Part shown: positions 13,826 through 59,730 of the stretch, piece by piece | Position numbering within the stretch: the stretch's first letter is position 1 | Layout of the letters: every line of letters starts with the position of its first letter | Assembly (NCBI GenBank): GCA_016748015.1 | Contig: JAAOMT010000200.1 | Span: 246,984 to 310,983 of the forward strand | Origin: Geosiphon pyriformis uo1 | Lineage: Eukaryota > Fungi > Glomeromycota | Direction of reading: 5' to 3' | Length of the DNA: 64,000 nucleotides | Notes under the pieces: generated by a model | Seen by the model: the letters and a program-made list of their open reading frames with translations, nothing else | Databases searched by the model: none | Told to the model about the DNA's origin: nothing | Made by a program: the position numbers and the translations under genes

Positions 13826-16800
13826 TGTTATCAAAAATTTTTGGTCTCTTTTCTTGAATATTGTTAATATTTATTTGCTATTAATTCATAATTATTGAAA
13901 GTGAATAAATCTTTAATAATTGAATTTTATCTTCAAATTATTTTTTATAATTTGAATCACTAAGTTTATAAGTAAAATGGCCAATTCTATACCAAATTAA
14001 TCTTTATGTACAACTTTGGTTAGAATTTTATTATTAAGTTTTAACTTATATGATCTATTGCCTAAGATTTTATAAATATAAAATAGTCTATTTTATTTAT
14101 GTTTAAATTTTCTACTTCATTGTTTTTTAGCCTTAGTTTTATGTAAGAAAACTTTGTTTTCAACTTTGAATTTATTGGTAATTAGTGGTAATTTGTTGTT
14201 GTGTTATTTTTTTTGTTAAGTTTAAAAGTATTTAATATAAGTTGTTGCTATTCAAAAGATATGTATTTTAGTGTTTTATATGGTAGTAACACTAATAAAA
14301 TAAAAATATTTTATTTTTGCTCAAAATTAGTTGAGATTTTGGTTAGTAATTCATATAATATTTAGTTAAAACATTTTATTAATTTATTTGTTTAAGAATA
14401 ATAAGATAATAATAAAAGTCTTTTAATCTTAAATTGTTCACAAATTTCTTATATTAAGTTGTTTACAAAATGTGTTTTTTGATCAGATAAGAGTTCAATT
14501 GGGCATTTATATTGTTATAGATGATTATTTAAGATGTTGATACAAATAACAAATCTATAACTTGGTGCTCAATAGCTTGTTAATATTAGTAATATTTGAA
14601 AGTTTTTGTGATCTGAAGGTTTTTGTTGAGTTTTTTGTATAATAAACAGAAATTTAATAGTTGTTTAATACTTTTCTAAAAGCTTATTTCATGAATTTTT
14701 TTTTCAGCTTGGTGGCCAATTCTTCCTGGTAAGCTATTCTCAATTTCCGAATTTCTACTTTTGTTTTTCAAGTCTTTTACCAGTTCTACTTGACATTAAT
14801 AACTTCATGTATTAATCTTTTAATCAATTAGTAAACAACAAAACAAAATAAAAAAAAAATAAAAAAAAATAAAAAAAATAAGAAATTAATATTCTGTTAA
14901 TAGTTATAATCAAGAATTATTGGTCTAGTGTGATTAAGTGTTGGATTTTATCAACATAAAATATTGATAGAATGAAAATAATTAATATTTTTAATCAAAT
15001 AATAATAATATAAATTTGATAATAATAGATATTTTATTAATATGAAAATAATTTTACTTTAAGTTGTAGAAAACTACTTTTTAAAAGAAAAAGTATTGTT
15101 CTAAATTAATATAAACTCTATTTAAATTTTTTTGGAATTACTTTTTCTGTTTTTAATACTCTTACTATATATATATAATTTATGTTATATAAGATTCTTT
15201 GAATTCTTTTAATTTTTTTTCTCATATTTATCACAATATTTTAAGTTATAGAGAATTAGACAATGTTTACAGAGTTTTATATTTAATTGTTCTAAACATT
15301 GCTCTTGTTTTTCTTAAGTAAGTGCTAAATTTTTGTAGTAGAATGGTTTTTTTCTTGGTTTTGACAAGTATAAAATGTGCCAACCATTATTTGTTTTTTC
15401 TGTAGAAGTGCTAGCTTATAGTTTATTCTCTTTTTTTTTTTTTTTTTGTTATCCCAAGAAAGTATTGGTATTGGTTTGTTGTGTTTATCTTCAGCTCACA
15501 AAATTTAATAGGCTTTTTAGATAGGTTTTTTTTTTCAAACTTAATTAGTGGTAATTAGGTAGTAGTGCTTGTTTTAAAATAGCCACAGATAGCAAATACT
15601 TGAGTTTGCTAATTATCTTGACTAAGCTGTAGTTTTTGAGTGTTTTAGTTAAGCATAGCATTAGTTTTGAATAGCCAGTTATTATTAATAAAAGCTTAAT
15701 ATTGTGTGGCTTCTATTACCAACATTTTGATTGATGTGATAATGCCTTTGATTTTAAAAAAAAAGTTATCAATTTTGCCAATAAGAGTTTTTGTTATTTT
15801 ATTGGCTGTAATGATTCTGGTGTTGACAGTATGATCAACTTGATAACTTAGTTGGTTTATAAGTTGTCATATAATAATACTGTCTGCTAACTCATTATTA
15901 AGAATTAGCTTGATAGATTGGCCATAGACTTTGGCATTCATGTATATTATGGTAATTGGTTTGACATTAAGAGTAACTCTACTAAATAGAAGTGTTATTA
16001 TTAATTATTCTAATCCAAAAAGAAAGATGGCTGCAAGTAATTTATCTTTGGTAACTGTTGCTGGTAAAATATTGTTGGTAAGTAGTGTTGGATTGAATTC
16101 CAAGTTGTTAGATAGGTTGTTTTCTAAAATAACCAAAAGACTTAAATAGTTCTGAAAATTTAGGTTTTGGGTGTAACCACTTTTTGAATTCTACTGATAT
16201 GATCCTAATGGCTGATTTGATGAACTAGGGATTGGTTGATGCCTTATTATTACTAATTATCAGTCTTGTTAGATGAATGTAATTCTCAGTCTTTGATTTC
16301 TAGTTGTTATTTGAGCTAAATTTTGGGGTAATATTTGAATTGGTTGGATTTAATAAATTACTAGTGACTATAGTTAATAAATTACTTGTGACTGTAATTG
16401 ATAGATTACTGGTACTGAAATTTAATAAACTGGAGGTATATATATTGGTTGTTGTATTATTGAAATATAATAAGACTAGTATTAATATTGATCTTGATTT
16501 AGAGTGTAATTTGGAGTTTAAAATCTGCAATCAGAGTTTTAATATTGATTTTTCAATTGTTGGTTATTAAATCTAGAGTGGCAATTTGCTTTTAGATAGT
16601 CTTGTTTACTACAATAGTAATAATTATACATTTTTTATTGTCATGGTTAATTTGCTAATAATAAATGCAATTAATTTTGGAAACAATTGAAGTTTCCTTG
16701 ATTGTCAATATTGTAAAAGCTGATAAATTATTTGATTGCTAGCTAAGTATCTCTCTAATTTCTGGTTAATGTTAGTATTAGTTCTGTGTTGAATTATACT

Positions 16801-19615: not shown

Positions 19616-22600
19616 GGTAATGACTAACTGTTTAAGACCAATATCATATTTAACTAGACTATGCAAAAGCTACAGCTCAATTAAAATAATTAGCAAACTT
19701 AGATACCTGCTATTTGTAAACACTTCAAAGCTCTTTCAAGAGAGCAATCATTGATTTAATTGAAAAAAAAGAAAAAAAAACTTACTTGAAAAGTCTATCA
19801 AGTTTTATAGACTGAAAATAAGTACACAAATTACTGCTGATACTTTCTTGGAACAATAAAAAAAAAAAAAAAGAAAAAGATAAACCAAAAACCACCACAG
19901 CCACCAAAAAAATAACCAGCAGATGAAATCAATTCTACTCTATAGACACAAAAAAAAATCATCATATATTCTACTGAGATGTATTAACTATAATAAAAAG
20001 CTTTTTTTTATAAAAGCTTGAATTTTATTTAAAGAAAACTATTAAACACACATATATTACTACTATAAACTATGTCATCAAGAACATTTTAACTACCTTA
20101 AATGACAAAAAAAGTGAAACAATAAACCATGTTTTGTTTGTAGAAAAATGTTATTTGATGAAGAAATATAAAATAACATTTTTGGTTGAAGAGAAATATA
20201 CAACACATCATATTAATAAACAATTCTTATAAGTAATTGGGTGAATCAAAAAATATCTTTCAATATTATATGAAACCAAGCATTTTTATGCTTAAACAAC
20301 TACCCACACAACAAAGACAAAATCTGATAAATAACAAGTGTCAAAATCAAAAACACTTTGTTCAATAAAATATTAATCATCAAAAACAATTCACCAAAAC
20401 CTGTTGAGACTATTTTTATTTCCAATTCAAATACATTTATCAATATTCTAAACAATTCAGAACAGTTTCATAAATATTACCAAGATCTAGTACCAACTAA
20501 AAAAGAGCAAAAGTAGTATTTGAAATAGTTAAATATAAAATTCTGTAAATATTGTTTAATTTCCAGTAACTTCAAATATTGTAATAATTGTAATTTTATC
20601 TACAATCTATCACCACACATAATTTATTTGATCTTTGAAGAAAAAAAACTAATCAGCAAATGTGTATTGGAATCAAAATCAAAATCCAATTACAATTTAA
20701 ATTTTAATGATAATAACAACAACAGTTTTAACTTTATTTATAATGGCAACAATAATAACAACAATTTAAACTTTAATTACAACCTTGAACAATATATTAT
20801 GCTCTCAGATTTTTTATTGAAGCAGAAACTTAAATAATTTAGCAATAATAATGAAAATATTATGCCAGAATATGCATATAATATCAATATAGAATTTGAT
20901 TTAAGATATCCAGAAAAAACTGCCATCAGATTGAAATCTCATTTATGTACCAATATAGATCTAAAAATAGCACTGAAAATTTTGGCAATAACAATAGTTT
21001 AATTAGTTTTTAAATCTAGTTTAGTAAAAAAAAAGATTAATATTAGAGAAAGAATAATTGATGTAAAATATATAGAAAATAGCAATGTAATACTACAAAA
21101 TGACTCAGAAAAAAAATATAATTAAACCAAATAAAAAAATAGCACAGACAATATTTCTGTCTTTGATTAAAATAGCTTAGTTATTATTAGTAAAAACAAA
21201 AAAAAAGTTAGAGATTACAGCAAAAGAAATAAAAAAATTCGAATTTATGAATAAAATAGAAATATCAGTCAATATGACAGAAAAAAAAACAATTGATAAG
21301 GAAGAAATTATCTTTATCCATTAATTAATTTCTATTTTATTATATAACCAGTATATATTAGTTATAGAAAAGAAGATAAAAGATCAACTTCAGATTTTTG
21401 AAGCTAAAGAAAACATTTGTGAATTAGGAGAGATTAGTATTATTAATCTTTATATACCAGTCAAGAACCACAAACACATTAAAATCTTAATATACAACAC
21501 AATTAGAGATCTCATAAAAATATCAAATAGAACTACTATTAAATACTTAAGTGCTAAAATTGAAAACCAACCACCAACCACTATTTTAGACTTTCCAAAA
21601 CTGTGTAAATATGTGAATATTATATTACAAACAATCTATGAACAAGAAAAGTGTTATTTGTTACAATTCAAACAATTAGAACAAATAAACTTGGGAAATT
21701 TAGACCTATTTTAACAAATATAATTCAAAATAGTACTTAACAATTTTACTGACATTTTTGCCAGTAAAAATGAATTTAGCAGAACTAATATCATTCAACA
21801 CCAAATCAAAACTAAAGATGCAATACCAATTAAACAAAAAACATACAAAGTACTACTTATTAACCATAAGATAATTAGACAAGAAATCAACCAAATATTG
21901 AACAACAGATTAATTCAATTATTAATAAGCCTATGGTTATTACTAGTAGTACTTGTTTATAAAAAGAATAGAAAGATTCACTTTTGTGTAGACTATTAAA
22001 AACTCAATAGTATTACTCATGGAAACAGCTATCTGACTTCATGAATTCAGAAATTATTTAATGTTTTCAAAAAAAAGAAATGGTTTTCAATATTAAACTT
22101 AAATAGTAATTATTGACAAGTAATCATAAATCTAGTTAACAAAAAGAAAACAGCATTTACTATCAGAAAAGAGAACTTTAAATTTAATGTTATACTATTT
22201 AGCTTAATCAATACTTTAACCATTTTTCAATAACTTATGAATATTGTATATACTAAATTGCTATAAAAATCAGTAGTGGTTTACTTAAATAACACCAATA
22301 TGTTTTCAGAAACATTTGACAATTATTTTTATTATTTCTAACAAGTGTTTAAAAAATTAAAAAGAGCTGAATTAAAGTTGAATGCAATCAAATACTTCTT
22401 TGGCAAAACAAAACTCAAGTTTGGAATATGTCATAAGCAAAAACAGCATTAAAACAAATTTAAACAAAATTGAAATAGTTAAGAACTTTTTAATATCAAC
22501 AAACTTGATGAAATTAAGAACATTTTTGGAATTTGCTGAATACTATTATCACTTTATCCAAAACTTTTCCAAACTGGCTCAACTATTTTACCAGTTACAA

Positions 22601-27439: not shown

Positions 27440-29921
27440 ACAAAAATCAATCTTAGAATTGCTCTTGAAATTTTATTAGAAACAATGATTTAAATTACTT
27501 CTTAATTATTATTAACAACCAAAAAAATCAACATTAGAAAAAAAATTATAAATAGAAAATATACAGGAGACATTGCAATTATGCTACAAAATAAAACAAA
27601 AAATATATTTAAGATTAAGCATGTTGAAAAAATTGCCCAAACAATTTATTTACTCTTAATTAACATTTTGGGTTTATAACTAGTCAATCAAAGAAAACAA
27701 TTAGGCAAAAGTAATAGAAAAACCCAAGATTTTGGTTCAACTAAACATTTTACAGTCTTAATAAACATAGTTCTTAATGTACAAAATAAATTTTACCAGA
27801 TTTTTTGACTTTTTTAACCAATTATTATATTACTTTTTGAAAAACATTACAAAATTTATACCTGCCCAAAATTTACTACTATATAACAAATCTTGGAATC
27901 AAATAAACAAATCTGCACAAAGCACAAAATCTCAATTTTAAATATCTATATTCTGAAAAAAATAAAGAAATTCTGAGTTATTTTTATAACTCCAACAAAT
28001 ACCCTATTATTTTATTAAATAGACTGAAAAGAAAAATTATATATAAAAATATTTTTTAAAATAAAACCTCTCAAATTATTTCTAATTTATAAAAATTATA
28101 AAACACACACTTTTTTCAAACCCAAATATTATTTTCACTGCTGAAACTATTATTTTATTGAGGAAAAACTTTCTTAAATTAACATGAACTTCTTAAAATC
28201 CCAAAAACAAAAACAATTAAAACAACTAATTGCCAAATATATTAATATATTCACTAAAAATAACAACAATCTAGGAAAAACTAATATTGTTTAATACCAA
28301 ATTTATATAAAAAATGCTCTACTAAAATGTTAATAAGTCTATTAAGTCTTATTTGCTAACCACTAATTTATCAAAAAAGAGATCCAGAAAATGCTTAAAA
28401 ATAGTTTTATTCAATTATTAAAAAGTTTTTGGGTTTCATTAGTGATCTTTGTTAAAAAAAAAATAGAAAAATCAGATTTTGTGTAGATTATTATCAATTA
28501 AACAGCATGATAATTGAAGATATATATTTTTTTTCAAGAATTAACAATATGCTAAATGCTCTAGAAAAAGCCAAGTTTTTTTTAACTTTAGACTTAAAAA
28601 GTAAATATTAGCAAGTTGAAATAAATCCAAAAAACTGCCTCAAAACAGCATTTATCACACAAAAAAAAACTACAAGTTCAATATTATGCTTTTTAAATTC
28701 TGTAATATACCAACAACATTCTAGAGACTAATAAATATTGTTTATAAAAGACTTTTATAACAATTAGTAGTTGTTTATCTCGATAATACTGATGTTTACT
28801 CTTTAAGTTTTGAAACTTATCTGATCTTTTTGTAAAAAGTTTTTCAACAATTATAGAAAACAAAACTGAAATTAAACATTAAAAAATATTACTTTTAAAA
28901 AACAAGTTTAATTTTTTTTGAATATATTATTAGCAAAAATAAAGTTTAATCTAATTCAAAAACAATTAATGATGTTAAAAACTTTTAAGTTTCTCAAAAT
29001 ACTATAGAATTAAGAAAATTTATAGAATTAACTTTGTATTACTAAAAGTTTATTAAAGAATTTTCAGAAATTGTCAAATTTTTTAATTATCTAACCAATA
29101 AAAATGTCTAATACCAATAGATTTTAATTCAACAAAAAACATTTAACACTTTTAAAAAAAAACTAACCACAACTCCAATTTTTGTCTATTCCAATTTCAA
29201 CAAAAAATTTCAGTTAGCTACCAATACTTTACACATAGTTTTTGGTGCCATTTTATTACAATTAAATAACAATAACAATAAATGAGTAATTACACATATC
29301 AATAAAACACTCAAGTCAACAGAACTTAAATATGGTTTAATTGAATTAGAAACAGCAACCATTATTTAATCTCTCAAATACTTTTAGCAATATCTTAGAA
29401 ATAGATTTTAATTTAACATTATTATTAATAATATTGGCCTCAAATAGCTTAACAATAAAAGCTCCAAACTTAATGCAAAACAATTCTAATTGACTGATTT
29501 TCTAGTCAATTACAAATATATTATGCACTACAAATCAGAAATATTACACACAAATATTAATAGTTTTTTTAGAATAAGGTAAGATTAGAACTTATATTAA
29601 CAACCCAATAATTTAACAAATTAATTAGTAATAATAAATTCTAAAAATTACAACAATATTAAAAACTATTTGAAGATTTTTAACATATCAAAAAATTGGT
29701 CTTTAATTAAAAAACACTAATTACAAAACCAATTAAAGCAATATTTTATCCATTACAACAAAATTTATTACCAAAATTGCAAAAATTCAACAAATTTATT
29801 TAGATTAATCTAACAAAATAAAAAAAAACGATTTTATACAACATATATACAGATTTTTTATCAGCACATTTAGGAAAAAATAGTACAATCCAAAAAACAC
29901 TTGAACATTATTTTTGGTTAT

Positions 29922-30787
29922 TGTTACTCATAAAAAAAAAACAGATATAGAAAATAGCAGACCAATGAGAGAATAGTATTTAGCACATGAGCACAATGCT
30001 TAGCAATGTGGAGCAATATCAGAAATTATGGCACATTGCTCAGCAATATGGAGCAATGTCAGAAAACATGGCACATTGTTCAGCAATGTAGAGCAATGTT
30101 AGAAATTAGAGCACATCACTCAGCAATGTAAGTATTGCTCAAGAAATCATAACACATTGTTTGGAAATATGAGTGATTTCATAGAACATCAATTATGTAT
30201 ATATAGTGGGAGTATTAGAAGTAGAAAAAACAGACCTCTCAGTTTAGATTTAATCTAAGCAACCTTCCATTCACAAATATCAAATAAATAATTATTTACC
30301 ATCCAAATTCACTCTCCACTATCAACACTTTATATTGATAGTAATTAATATTTAACTACACTGTAACAATAGCTCTTAATCATGGCTATTAACGGGATAT
30401 TAACTTGCAATTGCTTTTGTTTACTTCTTTATTTTTTTTTATTTTTTTTTATTTCTTTTTGTTATTTCTTTGGTTTTACTAAATTGATTAAGGATTAAGC
30501 ACTAAAATACAGACATCATAGAGACTGGTAAAAGACCTGTGAAACAAGAGTAGAACACTTATAGATTTGAGGATAGCTTATCAAAAGAATTACCAACCAC
30601 CACACTGAGAAAGAAATTCGATGGAATTGCGATTCTGGGAGGCTACTGAAAACAACTATTAAATCTCTGTCCATTATACAAAAAACTCCACAACCAAAAC
30701 CTTCAGATATTAACACTCAAGTAACAACTAAGCACCAAGTTACAGATTTTTTATTTGACTTGAGACCCCAAATAATTATCTGTAACA
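29922..30787 (+). repeat. 5' LTR of A
   Basis: TGTTAC...TGTAACA; direct repeat of 39202-39958. Confidence 0.95.
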
Positions 30788-30806
30788 TTTGGTGTTTTCT
30801 GTGAGG
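30788..30806 (+). other. Primer-binding site (consensus TTTGGTGCTCCCTGTGAGG from A, B and C)
   Basis: TGG two nt after the LTR; complementary to a tRNA ending ...CCUCACAGGGAGCACCA; resembles elongator Met or Ile(UAU) 3' ends, identity not established. Confidence 0.8.
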
Positions 30807-30847
30807 TATAATTCTACAGAGAACCAGCACCAACAAATAAATCAACA

Positions 30848-33800
30848 GTGGCAGAATCAGAAAGTATAAGAGCAAATTATTTAGAATTTGTGAAATTCTT
30901 ATTTCAACACTACTGTCAACACTTGGAATTGAACCACAATCAGATATTAGCAGAATTAGCCTTTAATTTCTATGTCAATGAAAAAATTGTCTATTTGTTA
31001 AGAACACCAGTAAACACTGAATTAGTGAGAGAAACTTTTTATCATGAATTAATCCAAAACACCAGCTTATCAACAAATTATAATTTTGCATCCATCATTA
31101 CTAAGATTAATAAAGAAATTAAACATCATACACAACAAAGATATCCAATCACTTATGCCAGTAAAGGCAAAGAAAAATTGCAAACACCAGTAGTAATACC
31201 AAAACAAATACAACCACCTACTTGGAAGAAAACCAGAGTTAAATCACCAACAAACCCATCATACCACTATACACTTAGAAACACCATTAACATCACATCA
31301 ACAGGTGCATCCACATCACATGTGACATTAATCTTTGGACAATTTTCATTTCAGAGTAAACAAAGGAAAGAAGATCTTTTAAGATCATATGGCGCGTATT
31401 TTGAAAAATTTAAGTCTCAATCGCCAATGTCATCAGAACTTTGATTTCTACCACCCCAACCAGATTTTGGAATCATGAGTTCCTGGAAAGTAATAGAATT
31501 GGAGGAAGAACAAGAAGAAGAGAAAGAAGAATCTGAAGATCAAAAATTTACTTACCAGAACCCAATCCCAGAAAACCTGAACATTGAAACACTGAATTTT
31601 TAGACTCAGCAAAATCCAAATTTAGAAAATCCAGAAATCAGAACTCCAAATTTCCAAATGCAGCACAATCAGAACAATCGAAACCCTGACATCAATAATT
31701 AACAACACTTATCTCCAGTAATCGGGATTAATTCAGCTCCACCAATCAACGAACAGCAACAGCAGCTACTTCAACCACCTCAACAACTACAGCAGCTGCT
31801 TCAACAGCCATAACAACAACTGCAACAACCAAATGTCAATCCAATGGCCTATGCTTTGATAGTGAAGCTTGAGAAATTTACCGGCAAAGAAGATGATGCC
31901 CAAGTGTGGCTAAATGATGTGGAAAAAACCATTGCAGCCAATGGCTAAAATGACACCAGAGCCATACAGGCCATTTTTTACTTTCTCCAAGATACCACTG
32001 ATTCATGGTATCAAAGCTGGCTAACAAACCCCAAGATTTTGCTGTATTCAAGCTTGCATTCCTACAATACTTTAGCAACAACAATAGTATTAATCGGTTA
32101 GCAAACACTTTTACCACTATCAAACAAGGAGAAAATAAAGCAGTCACTACTTACTTAGGACACTTCCATAGAAATCTGTACTAGATTCAAGCAATTCAGG
32201 CTGATTACTTTACAGCACCACAAATCCTAAACCAATTTATTAGAGGCCTGCACAGTAGCATTCTCCAACACATATGCCCAATGCATCCAGTAGACCTTCA
32301 AGCTATAGTTAACAATACCAGAGATTTTAAAGCAGCTGAACTCAAAGCCAACCATGCCCAAGCCATAAATCTAGTGATGAATGGATCATCTGAATTGGAT
32401 TCTAAATTGAAACAATTCAGTAATTCCATTAACCAAAAGCTGGAAGGGTACTTAGCTGACAATTGCACAATTTATCAGTCATCCCAATGATACAATAATT
32501 TAGGAATGACAAATCACCCACAAAATCAGTCATGTTCCTCATCATCATCCAATCAGCCATGGCAGCAAGAGATGCATATTTGCCACTACTGTGGTAAACA
32601 AGAACATTTGAAAATCAATTGTCAGTTAAGAATAGAAAACCAATGATCGAAAAATCAATATTGAAATTTTGATTGCAGGTTTTTAGCTCTAAGTTATCAA
32701 TCAATCTCAACAATATATCAACCAAATTACATACTTATGATGCAGCCACAAATTTATCAATCACCAATTTATCAGCCAACAGCACCTATTGTTTATCAAC
32801 TACAGTTTCAACCTATATATTAGCTGCAGTCACAAATAATCTATCAAACACCTGCAGTTTAAACACCATCACCCAACCTCACTCAAATGACATTAGGAAA
32901 TCTTAGATCAAAAGTCACCCAAAACTGGAGATTGGTAATGGTTGTTTATCAACCAATTCTTAGTTCATTCAACCAGTTATCAGAATCATGACAGTGGAGT
33001 TCGAAAACTGGGTATACTCAAAACCCGAGTTCTCAGAACTATTTAAGCCTTCTGGTTACCCCAAAAGACACCTCACCCAACACCCAGAAACCCAACCAGA
33101 AGTAACCACTTACCAATATTCCGCCAGCCACTGTTATAGAAGACGAGTCTCTAGTAGCAATATTTCTTTTCGAAATCGAGGAACTGACAGAAACTCCTTT
33201 ATTCAGTGGAGCTGCACTCGAGGAAAAACCTATTACAGCAATGTACACGAATGCCAAAATTGATGGTCAGTTTATCAAACTGATCCTAAATAGTGGATCA
33301 GCTGGCAGCATTATCACAAGACAGCTCATGAACCAATTAGGTTGCTGAGTTAATTGAGCTGCCAGTGCAAAAATAATTACAGCTGATGGAACCACCAAGA
33401 CTCCAATTGGTGAAATAGATAACTTGCTTATAGAAATCAATGGCATCATTGTACCAATCAAGGTATTAGTCATGGAAGCCACTCAATACCAAGCACTAAT
33501 GGGTAATAACTGGCTGTCCAAAATCAATGCAACACTTGACTGGAACACCCAAGAGCTCTAGCTTAGCCAGAACAGATGACACACATACATACTAGCTATA
33601 TGTGACCATTTCAAACTCATCACCACACCATCAGCTCCACTTATTGAATTGGAAAAAAAAAAGGAAAAACCTACCTGGGAAGCCTATCAAGTTTCTTAGA
33701 CCAATAAAAACAACCACAATAAATTACCACTGATACTATCCTGGGATGATAAAGAAAAAAGAAAACAAATAGAAAAACTTACCTAGAATCTGGATCAAGT

Positions 33801-36800
33801 CTGAGGAACTAACAATGATCAAAATGAACTACCAACAACCTGGGAGTGGGAAGAGAATAACTACAAAGAAAAAGGGAAAGAGAATAAAAAAATTCCAACA
33901 CCAACCACTATTCACCATACATATACTTACACACTACCACAACCAAATTATTGTTGACCAAAGCTTATATGTGCCAATTGTGGCAAGAAATTGTTTTCAA
34001 TGAGCACATGCTGTGGCAATGATGAAAAATACCAGATGGCAACTAAGTTTTATTGCCGTGCATGTTTCATTAAATGTTTTGGAAGGCCAAAACAAGTGAG
34101 AAAATGAGATAATACACCATGTTTAGCTTGTGGAGAAACTCTTCCAGATGAAGAAATGTGGAATGACATTCCTGGACAAGGAGGAACGTGTGATGAAATG
34201 TGCCAATATACAATCCTAATTAATGATTGAGTATACAAAGGCACACCAATTGATGACATCTGGAAAAAAGTGTTGTGATAATTAAAAAAATATTCTCACG
34301 ATGAACACAAACTCTGGAGAATGGCATATGTGAAAGCAGAAGGCACAACAACCAGTGAACTACTGGAAATCAAAAACAACCCTCTATCACTTCCTGAACC
34401 TGAATATGTCCAAACTTTTGACGTCTTTAACAACATTAAGGATGATTCAGAGGAATTCCATAAACATTACCAATAATTAGCACCCACCAGAAAGGAACAG
34501 AAACAATGCTTGGAAGAAATAAACACCCAATTATGTGACCACTGTTTGATTCCATGTGACTTCCAGTATTGCAATGAGTGTGATCTTATTTACAATCTAC
34601 CACCACACATGATCTACATGATCTCAAAAGAAGATGAACCAATAAGCAACTGTGCATCAGAATTGGAATCAATTTTTAATCCCAATTCAAACTCCAACAA
34701 TGATGATAACAAAAACACCAGTTCTAGCTCTGCTCAAAACAGCAACAAAAATAACAACAATTTGGATCCCAATTCAAACTCTGAAACATATATTGCCCTC
34801 CCTAATCTTACCAAAGAGCAAAAACTGAAATGATTCAGCAATAATAATGAAGGTATTATGCCTGAACACACACATAATACTGATGTAAAATTTGATTTGA
34901 GATATCTGGAGAAAGATTCCATCAAATTGGAATCTTACTTACACATTTGTATCGATCTGAAAATAGTGCTGAAAATTCCAGTAACAACAATAGTTCAATT
35001 AGCATCTAGAAGTAGTTTAGCAAAAAAGAGAATCAACATCAGAGGAGGAATAATTGACGCAAAATACATAAGAAATATTATTGCTATGCTACAAAATGAC
35101 TCAGAAAAAACATATACTATAGATCCAAATAAAAAGATAATACAGGCAATATTCCTATCTCTAGTGAAAGTAGCTCAGCTAGTGTCAGTGGAAAACAGAG
35201 AAGAATTGGGAATTACTGCTAGAGAGATACAAGGATTTGAATCAACGGATAGAATAAATATACCAGTTAATATAACAGAAAAAGAAATTGTTGACAAAGA
35301 AGAAATTATCTCAAACTGTCACACAATTTTCATTCCACCATATGATCAGTATATGTTAGCTATAAAAAGAGAAGTAAAGAATCAAGCTCAGTTGTTTAAA
35401 GCAGAAGCTACCATTTGCAAATTAGGAGAAATTGGACTCACCAATCTCTACATATCAGTCAACAGCCCCAAGAATATCAAAATTTTCATCTACAACACAA
35501 CAAGATGTGTTATTGAAATACCAAAAGGAACCATCATTGAATATTTAACTACCAAAGTTGAGAACCAACCACCAAACCATATTCTAGATTTTCCACAGCT
35601 TTGTGGATATGTGGACATCACATTACAAACCATCTACAGATGAAACGAATGTTATCTGTTCTAACCAGAACAATTGGAACAGATAAACATGGGGAATCTA
35701 GACCTACTCCAACAGATACAACTAAAGACGTTACTTAGCAACTTCAATGACATCTTTGCCAGCGAAAACGAATTTGGCAGAACCAACATCATCTAGTATC
35801 AGATCAAAACTGGAGATGCAATGTCAATTAAACAAAGAACATACAGAGTACCACCAGCTAGCCATGAAATTATTTGTCAAGAAATTAACCAAATGCTTGA
35901 CAATGGGCTAATTCAGTCATCAATGAGCTCATAGTCATCACCAATGATACTAGTCTGAAAGAAAAATGAGAAAATCTGCTTTTGTGTAGATTACTAGAAA
36001 CTAAATAGAGTAATCAAAGAAGATAGCTATCCAATGCCCAAAATTCAAGAGCTGTTCAATGTTTTTGGAGGAAATAAATGGTTCTCGATACTGGATTTGA
36101 ATAGTAGTTACTGGCAAGTAGCCATGGATCCAGCCGACAAAGAGAAAACAGTCTTTACCACAAGAGAAAAAAATTTTGAATTTGAAGTCATGCCATTTGA
36201 ATTGATGAATACACCGGCCATATTCTAATGACTAATAGAAATTGTATACACTGGACTACTATGGAAGTCAGTAGTTGTATACTTGGATGATACCAATGTG
36301 TTTTCAAAAACATTTGATGATCATTTGTATCATCTTTAACAAGTGTTCAAAAGATTGAAAAGAGCCAGAATAAAATTAAATGCAACCAAATGTTTCTTTG
36401 GAAAAACTGAACTCAAGTTTTTGGGACATATGGTGAGCAAAGATGAAATAAAAACAGATCCAAACAAGATTGAGATTGTCAAAAACTTTTCAGTACCAAA
36501 TAATCTCACAGAATTGAGAGCATTTTTGAGATTTGCTGAATACTACTGCCATTTCATCAAGAATTTTCCAAAATAGCCCAACCACTACACCAACTTCAAA
36601 CAAAGAATGTAAAGTATGAATAGACAAAAACTCAACAAAAAGCTTTTGATATCTTAAGAAGAAAGCTTATTCAAGCTCTAGTATTGATGTATCCAGATTA
36701 CAGCAAACTATTCATTATCACTACTGATGCATCTGGCCAAGCATTGAGAGCAGTACTATCACAGAAAAGACCAGATGGAAGAGAACATCCAGTAGCTTAT

Positions 36801-37082
36801 GTCAGTAGAAGCTTAAGTCCAGCTGAAAAGAACTATAAAACTCCAGCACTAGAATACTTAGCTATCTATTGGGCTGTCATCAAATGAAAGGAATACTTGA
36901 GCCAAAAGTTTGAAGTGTATACTGATCACAAAGGATTGACTTCAATTCAAAAACAAGAATTTGCAGACAATTGTTATGCCAGATGGAAAATAGAACTTTC
37001 ACCATTTAATTATACAGTACATTATAAAAAAGGAAAAAACAATGGAAATGCTAACAGACTGTCACGAATAAGACAAATCTAA
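30848..37082 (+). pseudogene. A ORF1: N-terminal extension - capsid Gag - CCHC - aspartic protease - Cys-rich - dUTPase - RT - RNase H
   Basis: KLEKFTGKEDDAQVWL (capsid), CHYCGKQEHLKINC, LILNSGSAGSII (PR), FCVDY, VYLDDTNVFS (RT), TTDASGQAL (RH), ends NANRLSRIRQI*. Confidence 0.92.
34858..35250 (+). pseudogene. dut: Trimeric dUTPase domain in A
   Basis: All five motifs recognisable: (DVK)FDL, SRSSLA, GGIIDAKYIRNI, IIQAI, REIQGFEST. Confidence 0.9.
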
Positions 37083-37112
37083 AAACATTTCAAACCAAAA
37101 ATATAACAAAAG

Positions 37113-38516
37113 ATGAATATACAAAAATACCAACAACTACAACATTATATAGATATTCAACTGTTCAAGAAGAAATTATCTCAAAAAGAACAAAGAAACA
37201 TTAAACAACAATCAAAATATTTTATCAATTATCAAAATATACTTTACTGGAAGAACAGAAGAAATTCAAATCAACCAATCAGAGTAATCACAGAACCAGA
37301 AAAAAAAACAATATTATTCAACATACACTCCAATCCAACAGCAGAAGATTTTCATAAAGAAGCAACCATGGAAAGAACTAGAAAAAGATACTATTGGCCA
37401 TCTATGTACCCAGATATTATCCAATATGTTCAAAATTGTGATGCTTGTCAAAGAAGAGGTAGAACAAAACTCAGTGAACTATTAAGACCAATCAAAGTAG
37501 GACAATTATTCAACTGTATCGGAATTGACTTAGTAGGACCATTAACAATCACCAGCAGAGGAAACAGATATATCACAGTAGCCATAGACTATCTTACAAA
37601 ATGGCCAGAAGCAAAAACCATTCAAAGAGCAAATGCAAAATCTGTTGCCGAATTCGTTTATCAAGATTTGATTTGTCAACATAGATGTCCAAAAAAACTA
37701 TTATTAGATCAAAGAACTCACTTTGTAAACAGAACATTAGCAGAATTAAGTCAAAGATTTGGAATCAAAAGACCATTATTATCACCATATCATCCACAAA
37801 CTAATGGACTAGTTAAAAGATTTAACAGAACATTGTGTGAAGCAATCACCAAAATCAGTCAAGAAAACCAAGACAAATGGGATTTGTTCATACCATCAGT
37901 ATTATTTGCTTATCAGACAATGAAACAAGATACTGCACAAGCAACACCATTTGAATTAGTATATAGTAGAACAGCAACATTACCAATTAAGATAGAAGTC
38001 AACACTTACCCAACAGAACCAATAACCAAAGATAATTTTCAGAAAATATTGCTAAGAAAAACATATGACTTAATGGAAACATTAGAAAATAAACAGTAAA
38101 GAGCAGCTGATAACATCCAGAAGTCACAAAAGAGACAAAAAAAAAGACACGATAACCAACTACCAGATAAACCAGTTGAATTCAAGATTGAAGACAAAGT
38201 ATTTTTACATCATACCAAAGCAGAAAAACAATGGAGTGGAAAATTTGACCCCAAATAAGACAGACCATTTCACATAGAAGAAATTCTTGGAAATGGAGCT
38301 TATAAATTAAGATGAGACAACAAAATTTTAGCCAAAGCATCACATGGTGATTGACTGAAACCATATTACCAGATAGCATCATTATCTACCAATAACATTC
38401 CACAACTAGGAGTACAAAGAATACTAGTTCAACCAGATGAGATTCCATGAGATTTGGAACCAATCATAGTTATTAAACCAAACACATCAAATCAAACAAC
38501 CCAAAAGAGTATATAA
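37113..38516 (+). pseudogene. A integrase (HHCC, DDE core, GPY/F module)
   Basis: HSNPT..FH...RYYWP...CDAC; IGIDLVGPL; LLLDQRTHF; PYHPQTNGLVKRFNRTL; DRPFHIEEILGNGAYKL. Confidence 0.93.
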
Positions 38517-38550
38517 AGACACAATACACATGACAAAAGCAACCAAGAAA

Positions 38551-39186
38551 ATGGAAATACCAGATCATATTCACACTATAGCTTAACAACTGTTCTAGGT
38601 CTTAAGTCAACAACAGTTAGACATGGAAATTATTGTTAACAACCAAACAATTTGCTATTGAAACACCAAAAGAAAGACAAAGAATACCTCATATCAACGG
38701 TTACCAAAGAATGATAAAAACTGGTCAAATAACATAATAGAAAAAGTAAAGAACACTTTTGAGAAAATACCTATTATGGCACCAACAAAAAAACTTACAA
38801 AAAAGAATTGGAAGCAATAGACAGAACAACTTTCAATATCATATTGTTACTACCAGTTAAGTCGGAAGTTGAATATTCAGGAGTTGTATACCAACAAATT
38901 CAAGAGAATATTCAACCAAGACATAATACAACAAATTGAAGAATTTATTGAAAAGAAAACAAATTCAACACTACATGTTAAAACAATGTACCGACTATAC
39001 AACATATTTTGAAACTATCTAGAAATACTGTTACACTCTGACATGGAAACCATAATCATTAACCAATGGGGAAAAATGAACAATACATAAGTAGAAAACA
39101 TGAGAAACAGAGTTGAACAAACAATACTTGAAAAAAAAATATTGGAATTAATTCAAAATGAAAATTTTAACAAAGCTTAATATTAA
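38551..39186 (+). pseudogene. Unknown ~210-aa domain or ORF between the integrase and the PPT of A
   Basis: MEIPDHIHTIA...NF(N/D)(K/R)AQY* alignable with 61168-61797 and 24514-25153; internal stops are explicable as CAA/CGA/CAG>T. Confidence 0.75.
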
Positions 39187-39201
39187 AAAAGAAGGAGATA
39201 A

Positions 39202-39958
39202 TGTTACTCATAAAAAGAAAACAGATATAGAAAATAGCAGACCAATAAGAGAATAGTATTTAACACATAAGCACAATACTCAGCAATGTCAAAAATCATG
39301 ACACATTGCTCAAGAAATCATAGCACATCACTTGGAAATGTGAGCAATCTTGTAGAACATCAATTATGTATATATAGTGGTAACATTAAAAGTAGAAAAG
39401 ACAGACCTCTCAGTTTAGATTTGATCTAAGCAACCTTCTATTTACAAATATCAAATAAATAATTATTTACCATCCAAATTCACTTTCCATTATCAACACT
39501 TCATGTTGATAGTAATTAATACTTAACCACGCTGGAACAATAGCTCTTAATCATGGCTATTGACGGGATACTAACTTGCAATTGCTTTTGTTTACTTCTT
39601 TATTTTCTTTTATTTTCTTTTATTTCTTTTTGTTATTTTTTTGGTTTTACTAAATTGATTAAGAATTAAGCACTAAGATACAGACATTATAGGAACTAGT
39701 AAAAGATCTGTGAAACAAGGGTAGAATACTTATAGATTTGAGGATAGTTTACCAGGAGGATTACTGGCCACTACACTGAGAAAGAAATTCAACAGAATTG
39801 TAATTCCAGAAGGCTACTGAAAACAACTATTAAATCTCTGTTCATTATACAAAGAACTCTACAACCAAAACCTTCAGATATTAACACCTAAGTACTAACT
39901 AAGCACCAAGTTACAGATTTGTTATTTGACTTGAGACCCCAAATAATCATCTATAACA
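39202..39958 (+). repeat. 3' LTR of A, preceded by PPT (39185-39201)
   Basis: AAAAAAGAAGGAGATAA|TGTTAC...TATAACA. Confidence 0.95.
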
Positions 39959-42564
39959 CCATACATGTACCAAAACATTTGATAATATATAGAATTATGT
40001 GATAGTTGTTAAAAAAAAAGGAACTCATCTTATTGAATTTTTAAATTCAAATAAAGTTGAACAACTTTTTAACAAAGTGAAAAACAATTTAGTTAGACTA
40101 CTACTTATTACTACTTAAAAAAACTGTTATATTGTAATTGCAGTAGATTATCTTATCAAATGGCTTAAAGTTAAAGCTATTTTAAGAACAAACACAAAAT
40201 TAATAGCAAATTTTATCTATAAAAACATTATTTGTAGACATGAATATTCAATTAAACTTCTATCTAATCAAGAAACATACTTTGTAAACAACTTGATACA
40301 AAAAATTTGTAAATAATTCAATTTTAAATAACTTCTATTATTATTATATTATTCATAAACAAATAGATTAGTGGAATATTTTAACCAAATATTATGTGAA
40401 TTACTAGAAAATTTCAATTAATTTTGAGCAGAAATAAAATATTTTTATTCTATCAATATTTTTAATATATAGAATACTAAAACAAAATACAATAAAGCAC
40501 ATACTATTTGATTTAACTTATAAAAAAACAACAATATTATTAGTCAATTTTACTGTAAAAACATATTTAGTACAACTAATTACAAAAAAAAACTTTCAAA
40601 AAAACATTTTAATAAAGAGTTTATACTCTTTTTAGCACATTAGAAAAAAAATAACAAATTGCAGCCACTTATATTAAATACTTTTAAATACAACAAAAAA
40701 ATGGCATAATAACAAATTGCCACTTATTACTAACAAATTTAAAATTAGAAATAAAATTTTTTTACATAAAACTAAAGCTAAAAAACAATGAAATAAAAAA
40801 TTTGATCACAAATAGAATAAACTATTTTATATTTACAAAGTTCTAGACAATAGATTATATAAATTAAGACTTGATAACAAAGTTTTAGCCAAAGTTGTAT
40901 ATAAAGATTAATTAAAGCATTATTATTTTAGAAACAATCTTGAACTATTAATTTCACAAATTGGTACATATTTTTTTTAATTAATCTTGAAAATATTTCC
41001 TAAAATTTAGAACTAATAATTATAATAAAACAACAACCAAATCTGAACATTTAATTTAATTTTATTAGTATTTTTTTAAAATAATTCAAAAATATTAAAC
41101 AAAAATAATAAAATAATCACCAAAAAATATTTAAACCAAAAATATATAAAACTTTTATACCAAAAATAATTTTTTTTTTATTTTTTTATTTCTAAAAAAT
41201 TAATTTAAATTCTATTTAACTTTATAATGTTTATTTTCTGAAACATTTAACAAATATTCCAAAAATTAATATTAGCTTTAAAAACATTTTTTGACTTATT
41301 TATAATTATCAATGAAAATCAAATCAATTATACTTATAAAAAAACTATAGTCTTAATAGTAAATAATTCCCAAAAATATTATCCTTATAGAAAAAACATA
41401 AGAAATTATTCTGAAAGTCAATTATTAAAACTTTTAAAGCAAGCTTTAAAAGAAAACTTATTGTTTATATTTATTGATATTTTTTTAAATGCTATAATAC
41501 AACAAAAACTTCAAATGTGTTTTAATAAAAACAGTAAATATACTTCTAGTTATCAATATTTCCAAATTAGAAAACATTATACCAACAGAAACTAGAATTC
41601 AAAGCAACTAATATTTATTCTAAAGCTATATAAAAGTGAATACACAATAAATTCAAGACAACAGCTTGATCAACAAATGCTTATTATAAACTTAAAACAG
41701 TTTTTAAACTCTATAACTTATTTAACATATGTGAAAATATCCTACAAAATTTAATACTTTAACCAATAAAAATTCAATATATTAACAAGCTTACAAAATT
41801 GAAATTTTAACAATTTTCAGACCAAATTACTTTAATAATTTAGAATTACTATCTCAAAATTACAAATAATGCTTGGACTTTAATAGAACTTAGTTTTAAG
41901 AAGAAAATTATGTTACCAGTAGAATTTTAGTTATTAACTAGCATGAAATTACTCTTATAATTTCTATTATTAATTAATATATATTAATATTATTTCAATT
42001 ATTACTTATTACTTAAATCAAATTATTGAATATTACTATTTAATTAATAACCAAATTTATATAATAAAAATTAGGATGATTAAATGACACAATACTCTAA
42101 ACTATTTAATATTTAAAAATTTGCTAAAATTTACAAAAATTTACCAAAATAATAGATAGTTTATCAAAATAGTTTATAATTTGATGAAATAACTTGTAAT
42201 TTATTAAAATATATTTTAAATTTGTCAAAATTATAGCAAAAAAAAAGTTCAAGTTTATAAACTAGTACTATAACAAATTGTATAAAAGAAAAGCTTCTTT
42301 TTTTGAGAAAAAATATTTTATTTTATTTTCTTTAGAATTAGCTTACAATATAAATTCAAAATAAAAATATACTTTAAAAACCAATTTTCGAAATAATTAC
42401 ACTTGAAATTCTCTAAAACCCAATTAACATTTTGAAATTAATTAGCTACCAATTTTAGTAAATATTAGTAACTTTAAACCTAAACCAGAAAACAATTTTC
42501 TTAACAAAATTTCATTACTTTTATATTTCTTTTGTTTTTTTTTGTTTTTTTATTATAATTATTA

Positions 42565-45130: not shown

Positions 45131-45446
45131 ATAATTATTATTAAAATAGTCTACAGACAAAATTCTTGTAGAAAAGTTAACTTTTACAACAAAGTAACTA
45201 CACATTTCAGTAAGTTTTCAGATAAGCAATTTCTAAGAAAGAGTTGATATTTTCTATAAGATAACTAAACAAAATAATTGGCATAAAATTGGTTATTTTA
45301 CTTATAAACCCAGTGATTCAAATTATAGAAGATAATTTGAAAATAAATTCAGTTATCAGAGGTTTACTAGTTTTCAGAAAACGTAAATTAATAGCAAACA
45401 AACATTAACAGTATTTAAAAAAAGAAACCAAAAATTTTTGATAACA

Positions 45447-52469: not shown

Positions 52470-53257
52470 TGTTACTTATAGAATATAGAAAGTAAAGTAT
52501 TATTAATCAGTAGATATTAGCCAATCAGAAGTAAACGCAGTAAATGTGGAATTCCAAGATTCCTTTCAGAAGAATTGCAGGATTCCTCTCATCAGGAATT
52601 GCAGAATTCCAGAAATTCCAGGATTTCTGTCGCAAAGAATTGAAGAATTGAGAAATCTCAAATATGTATATATAACAGTAGTATTAGAAGCAGAAAAAAC
52701 AGAATTGACACCAAGCATCTTTAGCTTAGTTATCACAATCCTCAAATAAATAATTATTCACTATATCAAATTCATTTTTCACTATCAACACTTCATGTTG
52801 ATAGTAACTGATACTTAACCATACTGGAACAATAGTTCTTGATCACAGTTATTGACAGGATACTAACTTGCAAATTGCCTTGGCTTATTTTTTTATATTT
52901 CTTTATTTTCTTTATTTTTTTGTAATTTTGTTATTGTGCACTAACCAATTGATTAAAAGCACTAATTACTAAGGTCAAAGATTGCCTGGTAAAAGACCCC
53001 TGCAAGTGGGTAGAACACGTACAAGAGATACAGATTACTTATCAGAGAATTGCCAACCACTAAGCCAAGAAAAAAATTGACAGACTTGTGAGTCTGGGAA
53101 GCTATAGATAAAACAACTATTGAATTTTTGTTCATTATACAAAAGACTCATTTGGAAAACCTTCAGATACCAACCCCTTAAAGATATTATCAACAATGCA
53201 AATAGCTTTGAGCACCAAGTTACAGGTTTGATATTGGCCAAACAAACAATTGTAACA
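52470..53257 (+). repeat. 5' LTR of B
   Basis: TGTTAC...TGTAACA; direct repeat of 61811-62624. Confidence 0.95.
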
Positions 53258-53319
53258 TTTGGTGCTCCCTGTAAGATATAATCCTACAGAGAATCAGCAC
53301 CAACAAACACTATCCAAAA

Positions 53320-56300: not shown

Positions 56301-59300
56301 AACAAAGACCACTACGAGCTACCACCAATACTATTGTGAGACAAAAACCCCAAGAGAAAGCAAAGAGAGGAACTTACTTGGGAAACGGATGACCTGATCT
56401 GGACCAACAATGATGAAAGGGAACCGACACCAAGCTGAAAATGGGAAGAGAGCAACAAAGAGAAAGAAAAAGCGAAAGAAGAGCCACTGTCAACAAACCT
56501 GTATACCTCCTATCAACACACAACACCACAACAATTCACCTATTGCTGACCCAAATTAGTGTGTGTCAATTGTGACAAGAAATTGTTGTCAATGGACGCA
56601 TACTGTGGTGACAATGAAAAATATCAGATGGCAACCAAGTTCTATTGCCACACATGCCTCGTCAAACATTTTGGAAGACCAAAATGAGTGGGAAAATGAA
56701 ATAATACACCATGTTTAGCCTGTAGAGAAACTCTTTTCGATAAAGGAATGTGGAACGACATTCCTGGGAGAGGAGAAACGTGCGACATTTCTTACCAATA
56801 TATGATCCTCATTAGCAACTAGGTTGAGAAAGAAACACCAATAGAAGCTGCCTGGAGAAAAGCTGTACAGTGATTGGACAGTTGTCCACATAACAACAAT
56901 AAATTATGGCAAATGACAATCGCCAAAATTGAAAGCACATCACCAGAAGAAATTAGGACAATTAAAAACAATCCACCAGAACCCATCGAGCTTGACTGGG
57001 ACGCAGAGCCAGTCATAAATTTCCTGGAACCAGAAGAGTTCCATGAACACTACCAAAACTTGGCACCCACTAGAGAAGAGCAAGAACAATGACTAGCACA
57101 GTTGAATACAAAACTGTATTGCCATTGTTTAATTCCCAGTGACTTTGAATATTGTGACAATTGTAACCTCATTTACAATCCACTACTACACATGATCTAC
57201 ATGATCTCCAAAGAGGAAAAACCAATCAGCAGCTGTGCATCAGAGTCAGAATCACTATTTGATCTCAATACAAACTCTAACAACAACAACAACAAGAATA
57301 ACAGTTCCAGCTCTGTTTAAAATAGCAATAACAATGACAATAATATCAATTTAGATTCAAACTCTGACTCAAACTATGAACAATATATCATGCTTCCTGA
57401 TCTCACCAAGAAACAAGAACTGAAATAGTTCAGCGATAATAATGAAGGTATTATGCCAGAACGTGCGCATGATACTGATGCTGAATTTGACTTGAAGTAT
57501 CCAGAAAAAGATGCCATCAAATTGGAACCACATTTGCACACCTGTATTGATCTGAAAATAGCACTGGAAATTTCAGCAACAACAATAGTTCAACTAGCAT
57601 CCCGGAGTAATTTAGCAAAAAGAAAGATTAATATAAGAGGAGGAATAATTGACATGGAATATATAGAAAATATCATTGCTATGCTACAAAATAACTCAGA
57701 AAAGACCTATATTATAGAGCCAAATGAAAAGATAGCACAGGCAATATTCCTGCCTCTGGTTAAAATAGCTCAATTAATGTCAGTAGGAAACAGGAAAGAA
57801 TTAGAAATAACAGCAAGAGGGATACAGGGATTTGGGTCAATGGGTAGAATAGATGTACCAGTTAATATGGCAGAGGAAGAAATTGTTGGCCAAGAAAAAA
57901 TTATTTCAACTGGTCAAGCTATTTTTATTCCACTATATAGCCAGTACATGTTAACAATAGAAAGGAAGAAAAAAGAGCAAGAACAGTTTTTTGAAGCTAA
58001 AGCAAACTTTTGTGAATCAGGAGAGATTAAACTGATCAATCTTTATATACCAGCCAAAAACTATAGCTGCATAAAAATTCCCATCTACAACAACACTGAC
58101 AATGTCATCAACATACCAGAAGGAACTACCATTGGATATTTAACCACAGAAATAGAAGACCAATTACTAAATCCCATTCCAGACTTTCCACAACTTTGTG
58201 GATATGTTGACATCACATTATAAACAATCTATGGATGAGACAAATGTTATTTTCTCTAACCAGAACAATTAGAACAAATGAACATGAGAAATCTAGACCC
58301 ACTACAATATATGCAGCTCAAGATATTGCTCAACAATTTCAATGACATCTTTGCCAGCAAAAACGAGTTTGGCCAAACTGACATCATCCAGCATCAGATT
58401 AAGACTGGAGATACAATGCCAATTAAACAAAGAGCATACAGAGTATTACCAGCTAGCCACGAAATTATCTATCAAGAGATAAACCGAATGCTTGATAATG
58501 GGCTAATTCAGCTATAAATAAGTTTATGGTCATCACCAATGGTACTTGTCCAGAAAAAAAATAAGAAAATCCACTTTTGTGTAGATTATAGAAAACTCAA
58601 TGAAGTAACTTGTGGAGATAGCTACCCCATTCCATGGATCCAAAAATTATTCAATGCTTTTGGTGGAAACAAATGGTTCTCAACATTAGACTTGGACAGT
58701 GGTTATTGGCAAGTAGCCATGAATCCAGCTGACAAAAAGAAAATGGCATTCACTATTAGAGAAGAGAATTTTGAATTTGAAATAATGCCATTTGGCTTAA
58801 CCAATGCTCTAGCTACTTTCCAACAGCTAATGGAAATTGTTTATACTGGCTTATTATAGAAATTAGTAGTTGTATACTTGGATGACACCAATGTATTTTC
58901 AAAAATGTTTGATGATCATCTTTATCATCTTCAACAAGTGTTCGAAAGACTAAGAAGAATAGAACTAAAGTTAAATGCAACAAAGTGCTTCTTCGGCAAG
59001 ACAGAATTAAAATTCTTGAAACATATAGTCAGCAAAAATGGCATCAAAATGAATTCAGAGAAAATAGAGATAGTAAAGAACTTTCCAGTGCTGACCAATA
59101 TGACAGAATTGAAATCATTTTTGAGATTCACCAGCTATTATTGACATTTTATCAAGAACTTTTCCAAGATAACGCAGCCACTTAACCAATTACAAAACAA
59201 AAATACAAAATATGAATGGACAAAAAGTCAACAAGAAGCTTTTAATATTCTGAAAAGAAAGCTCATTCAAGCTTCAGTACTGATCTATCCAAATCACAGC

Positions 59301-59668: not shown

Positions 59669-59730
59669 AAACATTTCAAACCCGAAAATATAACAAAACC
59701 AGAACAATACCAACGAAAATATAACAAAAG

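What the first reader, a model, noticed from the sequence alone, without database searches (positions are those of the whole stretch)
33950..34600. Cys-rich multi-zinc-finger-like insert between protease and dUTPase
Seen in A: CANC-x8-CC...CRAC...CLAC...CDEMC...(helical W-rich stretch)...CDHCLIPCDFQYCNEC. It is largely conserved in B (56545-57180: CVNC, CHTC, CLAC, CHC...CDNC), F (~19975-20600) and partly in C. It is flanked by acidic/W-rich and low-complexity linkers, as expected for a separately folded, protease-released product. Known: Gypsy PR-RT linkers do not normally carry such a domain. Inference: a captured or new Zn-binding reader, nucleic-acid-binding or host-antagonist protein.
Basis: partly seen in the sequence, partly recalled or inferred. 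Interest (0 to 1): 0.72.

Follow-up and report, generated by a model that had tools for sequence, protein, structure and literature searches.

The report
Triple-zinc accessory domain in fungal retrotransposon
A broken jumping gene, most likely from the soil fungus Geosiphon, carries between its protease and its dUTPase a conserved 210-amino-acid domain with six cysteine pairs that matches no described protein family, is predicted to bind three zinc ions, and is likely cut out as a helper protein that would travel with the element's DNA copy and bind host proteins.

Summary
Real and conserved, not decay. The stretch 33961-34600 lies in the single gag-pol frame of a dead Ty3/gypsy LTR element, between protease and dUTPase. 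Twelve cysteines form six pairs (Cx2C-x24-Cx2C; Cx2C-x19-Cx3C; Cx2C-x8-Cx2C). They hold in 84-96% of aligned rows, and their usual substitute is Tyr, not Arg; control columns show which other cysteines are CpG decay. The domain is shared by at least five subfamilies only 35-52% identical, including an intact 1064-aa metagenome polyprotein, and its tree follows the dUTPase tree at subfamily level. All named relatives seen are Geosiphon pyriformis gene models. No Pfam, NCBIfam, PHROG or PDB match is convincing. AlphaFold (pLDDT 71) gives a treble-clef-like first finger, a second finger leading into a helical bundle, and a poorly modelled third site. Function is untested. Best guess: a protease-released, packaged adaptor that binds host proteins. 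dUTPase in this position is known; this insert was not found in print. The scan noted Cys/His modules at the same position in other genomes (three notes); a look-up by sequence found no likeness. Verdict: new variant of a known kind, interest 0.48.

The parts
29922..30787 (+). 5' LTR of copy A (TG...CA), followed by a primer-binding-site-like TGGTG at 30790
   Evidence: 87% identical to the 3' LTR over 696 compared columns
31841..32640 (+). gag: capsid-like region and CCHC knuckle; from about 32020 it is in the same frame as pol
   Evidence: (PF03732 E=1.1e-6, PF19259 E=6.5e-6)
33235..33570 (+). retropepsin protease (catalytic Asp read as Asn in this copy)
   Evidence: PF13975 E=4.4e-9
33571..33960 (+). 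variable acidic/Trp-rich linker with a conserved E-[TA]-[YF]-x-[AVL] motif near 33679-33696, a predicted cleavage site
   Evidence: cleavage inferred
33961..34080 (+). zinc site 1: Cx2C-x24-Cx2C (Cys at 33970, 33979, 34054, 34063), predicted treble-clef-like
   Evidence: LIM first finger Z 3.9, rmsd 1.9, 39 aligned
34102..34230 (+). zinc site 2: Cx2C-x19-Cx3C (Cys at 34120, 34129, 34189, 34201), running into a long helix
34200..34530 (+). predicted helical bundle and two further helices, net acidic
   Evidence: (pLDDT 81-95 over residues 81-150 of the intact relative)
34531..34600 (+). zinc site 3: Cx2C-x8-Cx2C (Cys at 34534, 34543, 34570, 34579) with a fifth Cys at 34555; fold not modelled with confidence
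   Evidence: pLDDT under 55
34601..34810 (+). Asn/Ser/Asp low-complexity linker ending in E-[TQ]-Y-I-A-L at 34783-34800, a second predicted cleavage site
   Evidence: cleavage inferred
34811..35245 (+). dUTPase
   Evidence: PF00692 E=7.8e-14
35691..36600 (+). reverse transcriptase
   Evidence: PF00078 E=3.1e-24
37107..38400 (+). integrase (HHCC, core, SH3-like tail; no chromodomain hit)
39202..39958 (+). 3' LTR of copy A, preceded by a purine tract
56553..57170 (+). same domain in copy B (element 52470-62624), 10 of 12 core Cys
19974..20600 (+). same domain in the more decayed copy F, 8 of 12 core Cys
15161..15340 (-). remnant of the third site in copy C

Best explanation
The stretch encodes a conserved 210-residue domain with six cysteine pairs inside the gag-pol polyprotein of a fungal Ty3/gypsy lineage; it is predicted to bind three zinc ions, is likely cut free by the element's own protease after packaging, and would then most likely act as an adaptor that stays with the reverse-transcription/pre-integration complex and binds host proteins (a chromatin tether or a shield against host defence). 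Shown: position, reading frame, conservation, co-inheritance with the dUTPase. Predicted: zinc binding and fold. Inferred: equimolar synthesis with Gag (single frame), cleavage at both sides, action in the particle and after it, protein binding.
For: Core Cys columns 84-96% Cys with Tyr as the substitute, against Arg/Cys/His mixes in decay columns. Intact 1064-aa relative P0179 has PR-insert-dUTPase-RT in one unbroken protein with all 12 Cys. Five subfamily references are 35-52% identical. Against P0179, copies A and B keep 36-52% identity in the three Cys sites and 28-34% in the helical part, but 21-30% in the linkers and 52-62% in PR and dUTPase. A versus B: second-position transversions 10 of 209 codons in the insert against 6 of 31 fourfold sites; linker 1 has 13 of 127. 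Insert and dUTPase distances correlate over 26 proteins (Spearman 0.82; pairs not independent) and both trees give the same four main groups. Gag capsid/knuckle and pol share one frame in A. A hydrophobic E-x-[YF]-x-[AVL] motif is kept in the otherwise variable upstream linker in all four main groups and recurs before the dUTPase in the largest group. The domain is net acidic (26 K/R, 38 D/E in P0179), and its best fold matches for finger 1 include LIM and ZZ-type protein-binding fingers.
Against: No binding partner, cleavage or zinc binding was tested. Fold matches are weak (no Foldseek E under 0.001; best VIA Z 5.3) and nucleic-acid-binding treble clefs (ribosomal proteins, GATA) score as well as LIM. 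Finger 1 and its linker are basic (12 K/R, 7 D/E). The downstream motif differs in two groups, so the domain may stay fused to the dUTPase. Selection is weaker than on the enzymes (second-position transversion rate 0.048 against 0-0.018). Nearly all sequences come from one genome's decayed copies through automatic gene models.
Confidence: 0.38

Rival explanations
1. The domain stays fused to the dUTPase and anchors the trimer on the element's nucleic acid or RT complex, as the zinc-finger nucleocapsid does in betaretroviral NC-dUTPase.
For: It always precedes the dUTPase and is co-inherited with it. NC-dUTPase fusions are described in PMC4531489, section 9. Three earlier scan notes report Cys/His modules at the same position (unchecked).
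Against: The domain is net acidic whereas NC is basic; no CCHC knuckle; a 40-70-residue variable linker with a cleavage-like motif separates it from the dUTPase.
Confidence: 0.22
2. It is a nucleic-acid-binding regulator acting in trans on the element's RNA or DNA (RNA export like Cer1 CERV, or anti-silencing).
For: Finger 1 is basic and superposes on ribosomal and GATA treble clefs (Z 3.1-4.1). Site 2 has TRASH/FCS-like spacing, and FCS fingers bind RNA (PMC4047054). CERV needs a Cys loop for genomic RNA export (PMC10309623).
Against: A product released from Pol inside the particle comes late for export or transcription control; no separate or spliced ORF was shown; FCS signature absent; overall charge acidic.
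Confidence: 0.22
3. It is a captured host or viral gene fragment that rides along with little function.
For: Selection is weaker than on the enzymes; most Gypsy elements do without it (general knowledge).
Against: All 12 Cys and many aromatic positions persist across 35-40% divergence, while linkers diverge more; no donor gene was found.
Confidence: 0.1
4. The cysteines are an artefact of CpG decay (CGY>TGY).
For: CpG is depleted in both copies (observed/expected 0.16 and 0.24) and several Cys in A do come from such columns.
Against: Arg appears once each in only 2 of the 12 core columns' listed residues; the intact relative has all 12 Cys.
Confidence: 0.01

Closest known systems
dUTPase-bearing fungal Ty3/gypsy elements (PosPlaTy3-5 of Postia placenta; elements of Phanerochaete and Tuber) and rotifer Juno/Vesta/TelKA
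   Same: dUTPase between protease and RT (PMC2864245 passages; PMC5408684 passages; PMC6431247 passages). Juno has an extra Zn knuckle after the dUTPase.
   Different: The passages read mention no multi-finger domain between protease and dUTPase; no chromodomain hit here. Supplements of these papers were not read.
Betaretroviral NC-dUTPase (MPMV, MMTV)
   Same: Zinc-finger module directly N-terminal to a dUTPase (PMC4531489 section 9).
   Different: NC is 81-95 residues, basic, CCHC and Gag-derived; this domain is about 210 residues, acidic, all-Cys and lies after the protease.
Treble-clef zinc fingers (LIM, ZZ, GATA, ribosomal; TRASH/FCS clan)
   Same: Finger 1 superposes on single treble-clef fingers (Z 3-4, rmsd 1.8-3.3, 36-46 residues); site 2 has Cx2C-x19-Cx3C spacing.
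   Different: No significant profile hit; finger spacing is unlike LIM; FCS signature absent; fused to a helical bundle with no clear match.
CERV of C. elegans Cer1
   Same: LTR-retrotransposon accessory protein with essential cysteines and no known homologue (PMC10309623 abstract and passages).
   Different: CERV comes from a spliced mRNA sharing the Gag start and has one Cys loop; sequence likeness was not tested.
Packaged retroviral accessory proteins (MLV p12, lentiviral Vpx/Vpr; recalled, from no call)
   Same: Proposed mode of action only: carried in the particle, then binding host proteins.
   Different: No sequence or fold match appeared.

Membership tests
Ty3/gypsy LTR retrotransposon | LTR pair, PBS, PPT, short target duplication | tested here: met
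   TG...CA LTRs 87% and 89% identical, TGGTG after the 5' LTR, purine tract, 4-base flanks TTAT/CCAT and CCAC/CCAT
Ty3/gypsy LTR retrotransposon | gag, then PR-RT-(RH)-IN order | tested here: met
   PF03732/PF19259, PF13975, PF00078, PF17921, PF00665 in that order; RNase H not scored by Pfam in the frame given (frameshift)
Chromovirus | chromodomain after integrase | tested here: inconclusive
   only an SH3-like tail (PF24626, E=0.0012); no chromodomain hit in decayed copies; RT clade not placed
LIM domain | two fingers separated by two residues, His at ligand 3 | tested here: not met
   sequence: 18 residues between sites 1 and 2, all-Cys ligands; only one finger superposes
PHD / extended PHD (PF13771) | C4HC3 cross-brace and profile score over cut-off | tested here: not met
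   one protein scored 18.8 bits against a cut-off of 29.1 (E=0.0019), 1 of 42 members at E=0.28; no conserved His ligand; third and fourth Cys not kept
RING finger | C3HC4/C3H2C3 cross-brace | tested here: inconclusive
   no Pfam hit; no His at the ligand position; only weak Foldseek rows (E>1.5)
TRASH/FCS clan | Cx2C-x14-30-Cx3C spacing | tested here: met
   site 2 is Cx2C-x19-Cx3C; consensus from PMC4047054
TRASH/FCS clan | FCS signature or profile hit | tested here: not met
   residues read T/V/M-C-D; no clan member listed
zf-CXXC (CpG reader) | two CxxCxxC repeats with KFGG motif (recalled) | tested here: not met
   pattern absent from the alignments; no Pfam hit
NC-dUTPase fusion | basic CCHC nucleocapsid retained on the dUTPase | tested here: not met
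   no CCHC, net acidic; retention after processing cannot be tested here
Zinc-binding protein | bound zinc at the Cys pairs | not testable with these tools
   inferred from paired Cys and the predicted fold

The most novel reading that the evidence does not exclude
A fungal LTR retrotransposon lineage has evolved its own retrovirus-style accessory protein: a three-zinc domain of a new family, packaged with Gag, freed by the protease, that disarms or co-opts a host silencing or chromatin factor, helping these elements fill about 40% of the Geosiphon genome; metal-binding modules would have been recruited repeatedly to the protease-dUTPase slot of fungal Gypsy elements.
Probability: 0.15. Interest if true: 0.78.

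Novelty: new variant of a known kind. Interest (0 to 1): 0.48.

Why it matters
Fixation of an extra conserved domain in an LTR retrotransposon is considered rare and can reveal host-element conflict (PMC9289625 abstract). Geosiphon has 41.2% of its genome in LTR sequence (PMC11952901 passage), and this domain is present in hundreds of its gene models, where it inflates the count of 'hypothetical proteins'. An intact relative (P0179) makes the domain testable. If it is an antagonist or tether, it names a host defence or targeting route in mycorrhiza-related fungi.

Tried and rejected
No whole genome was held. Pfam on the insert: no hit over cut-off; NCBIfam best E=0.04, PHROG best E=0.0038 in 3 of 42 members: treated as chance. 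PDB by sequence: best E=0.12, the N-terminal helix of fungal NF-YC/HapE over about 44 residues; not accepted, since the predicted helix pattern does not continue as a histone fold and none was listed among the top 50 (inconclusive, not excluded). First fold model was unusable (pLDDT 45). Foldseek: no match at E<=0.001 in PDB or BFVD; VIA-align best Z 5.3, generic helical rows; site 3 was barely tested. Internal duplication of the fingers: HHalign probability 27% for sites 1/2, under 2% for the others, not supported. No related locus in JGI metagenome contigs or IMG/VR; these pattern scans are weak. The ESM Atlas gave no answer. No verdict on domain-dUTPase binding was obtained. No RNA holder listed; one DNA run holds the stretch with 7684 contigs laid at 90% or more, several at 100% inside the insert (may be the source sample). 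Thymidine-kinase lasso, HNH and B-box readings were considered from recalled motifs and dropped for lack of P-loop or His ligands.

Full report
Setting. The window is AT-rich (15-39% GC by 2-kb block) and filled with nested, decayed LTR elements. Copy A runs from 29922 to 39958 and copy B from 52470 to 62624; their LTR pairs are 87% and 89% identical, and 74 of 88 and 82 of 89 differences are transitions. Pfam places gag, protease, dUTPase, RT and integrase in Ty3/gypsy order. From the second half of the capsid region through RT, copy A reads in one frame interrupted only by stops, so gag and pol were likely one ORF. All 120 listed hits (132 hits among 276 candidates) and all 120 listed hits (269 among 1188) are named Geosiphon pyriformis hypothetical proteins, so the host is most likely this fungus (inference).

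Observation. The cysteine motifs are present at 33970-34581 in the pol frame. Eight CxxC/CxxxC patterns in 213 codons were never reached in 2000 shuffles. Aligning 361 stored proteins plus copies A, B and F to a profile (500 matched pieces) gave 12 columns with 84-96% Cys (79 of 92, 82 of 96, 133 of 156, 128 of 152, 192 of 201, 193 of 206, 186 of 210, 182 of 197, 213 of 228, 212 of 220, 208 of 218, 208 of 223), Tyr being the commonest substitute, as expected when TGY decays to TAY. Columns 34057, 34075, 34279, 34507 and 34606 instead mix Arg, Cys, His, Gln or Trp, the mark of CpG decay, and serve as an internal control: the Cys at 34075 and 34507 of copy A, and the one at 33952, are such products. 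The 'CC' is a feature of one subfamily. These rows are copies of one expanded lineage seen through automatic gene models, so they are not independent.

Depth of conservation. The search of 1.84 billion representatives found 399 proteins at E<=0.001, of which 150 were listed without names. I looked up 10 divergent ones: 9 are Geosiphon, 1 (P0179) is an unnamed ENA metagenome protein. P0179 is an unbroken 1064-residue protein with protease, insert, dUTPase and RT and all 12 Cys. Five references are 35-52% identical over the insert. Against P0179, copies A and B keep 16-20 of 43-45 residues in sites 1 and 2, 8-11 of 21 in site 3 and 29-35 of 102 in the helical part, but 10-14 of 47 and 9-11 of 42 in the linkers, and 70-71 of 115 and 76-78 of 147 in protease and dUTPase. 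A transversion-only comparison of A and B, blind to C>T decay, shows constraint between that of linker and enzyme. For the 26 proteins covering both parts (of 93 with the insert and 113 with the dUTPase at 70% cover), insert and dUTPase trees give the same four main groups, though not the same order inside the largest. A word search with the P0179 insert found 5 proteins among 69 candidates: itself and four Geosiphon models. The 249 unlisted hits may hold other species, so the range is not settled.

Identity and fold. No family library gave a hit over its cut-off; the best hints were PF13771 for one protein (E=0.0019) and a helix of NF-YC (E=0.12). AlphaFold on a 42-row alignment led by P0179 gave mean pLDDT 71, pTM 0.47: a finger with a C-terminal helix (1-46), a second finger running into helices 86-99, 104-115, 119-133 and 138-156 (pLDDT 81-95), two more helices, and an unresolved third site. 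Finger 1 superposes on single treble-clef fingers of LIM, ZZ, GATA, FYVE and ribosomal proteins at Z 3-4; these Z values show a common fold at most. The helical part has only generic matches (best Z 5.3). Foldseek found nothing at E<=0.001.

Mechanism. Shown: position in a single gag-pol frame, paired cysteines under selection, variable linkers on both sides. Predicted: three zinc sites. Inferred: an E-[TA]-[YF]-x-[AVL] motif is kept in the upstream linker of all four main groups, and E-[TQ]-Y-I-A-L recurs just before the dUTPase in the largest group, with a similar stretch in a second group; I read these as protease sites. A single ORF means one copy per Gag, packaged and freed only on maturation (general retroelement knowledge), so the domain would act during reverse transcription, nuclear entry or integration. 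Its net acidic charge favours protein over nucleic-acid binding. I therefore commit to a packaged adaptor that binds host proteins (0.38), with a dUTPase-fused anchor (0.22), a nucleic-acid-binding regulator (0.22) and a passenger (0.10) as rivals. That the domain is real and was under selection I put at about 0.9.

Comparison with what is known. dUTPase between protease and RT is described in fungal, rotifer and planarian Gypsy elements (PMC2864245, PMC5408684, PMC6431247; passages only). Betaretroviral NC-dUTPase joins zinc fingers to a dUTPase (PMC4531489; passages and section 9). CERV is a Cys-dependent accessory protein of an LTR element (PMC10309623; abstract and passages). PMC3248453 (passages) has no mention of dUTP or zinc in its main text. 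PMC9289625 (passages), PMC4047054 (passages) and PMC11952901 (passages) supply context. Searches listed no paper describing this insert; the Geosiphon genome paper did not appear in them and was not seen, and no supplements were read (Additional file 1 of PMC2864245 lists element structures and may bear on novelty). Three earlier scan notes describe 400-codon Cys/His modules at the same position in other genomes; a look-up by sequence found no look-alike, and I could not compare them.

Verdict. A real, undescribed zinc-finger-type domain fixed in a Gypsy lineage known so far from one fungus and one metagenome contig; new variant of a known kind; function untested; interest 0.48.

Noticed in passing
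window 38530-39190 (A) and 61130-61800 (B): A further reading frame of about 220 codons after the integrase, similar in both copies, with no convincing Pfam hit: a possible third ORF.
   Followed up: partly
window 30812-31444: Open 210-codon frame in front of the capsid region, with no convincing Pfam hit; many relatives also carry a long N-terminal extension before the capsid.
   Followed up: partly
window 35246-35690: A 145-residue stretch after the dUTPase, less conserved (32-34 of 143 identical to P0179), under some constraint; it looks like a degenerate second dUTPase-like domain (recalled pattern, untested).
   Followed up: no
   Followed up: partly
window 27446-29921 and 39961-40909: Copy A is nested in the pol of another subfamily's element, whose dUTPase end resembles the P0159 group; its upstream part is lost.
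   Followed up: partly
LTR pairs of A and B: C>T/G>A differences occur in all dinucleotide contexts and on both strands, not only at CpG, and copy F has decayed to about 22% GC: a broad cytosine-loss process in this genome.
   Followed up: partly
window 1360-2094, 5905-8782, 42787-46136, 49344-51193, 63040-64000: Decayed repeats of another kind, with open frames lacking Pfam hits; possibly non-LTR elements.
   Followed up: no
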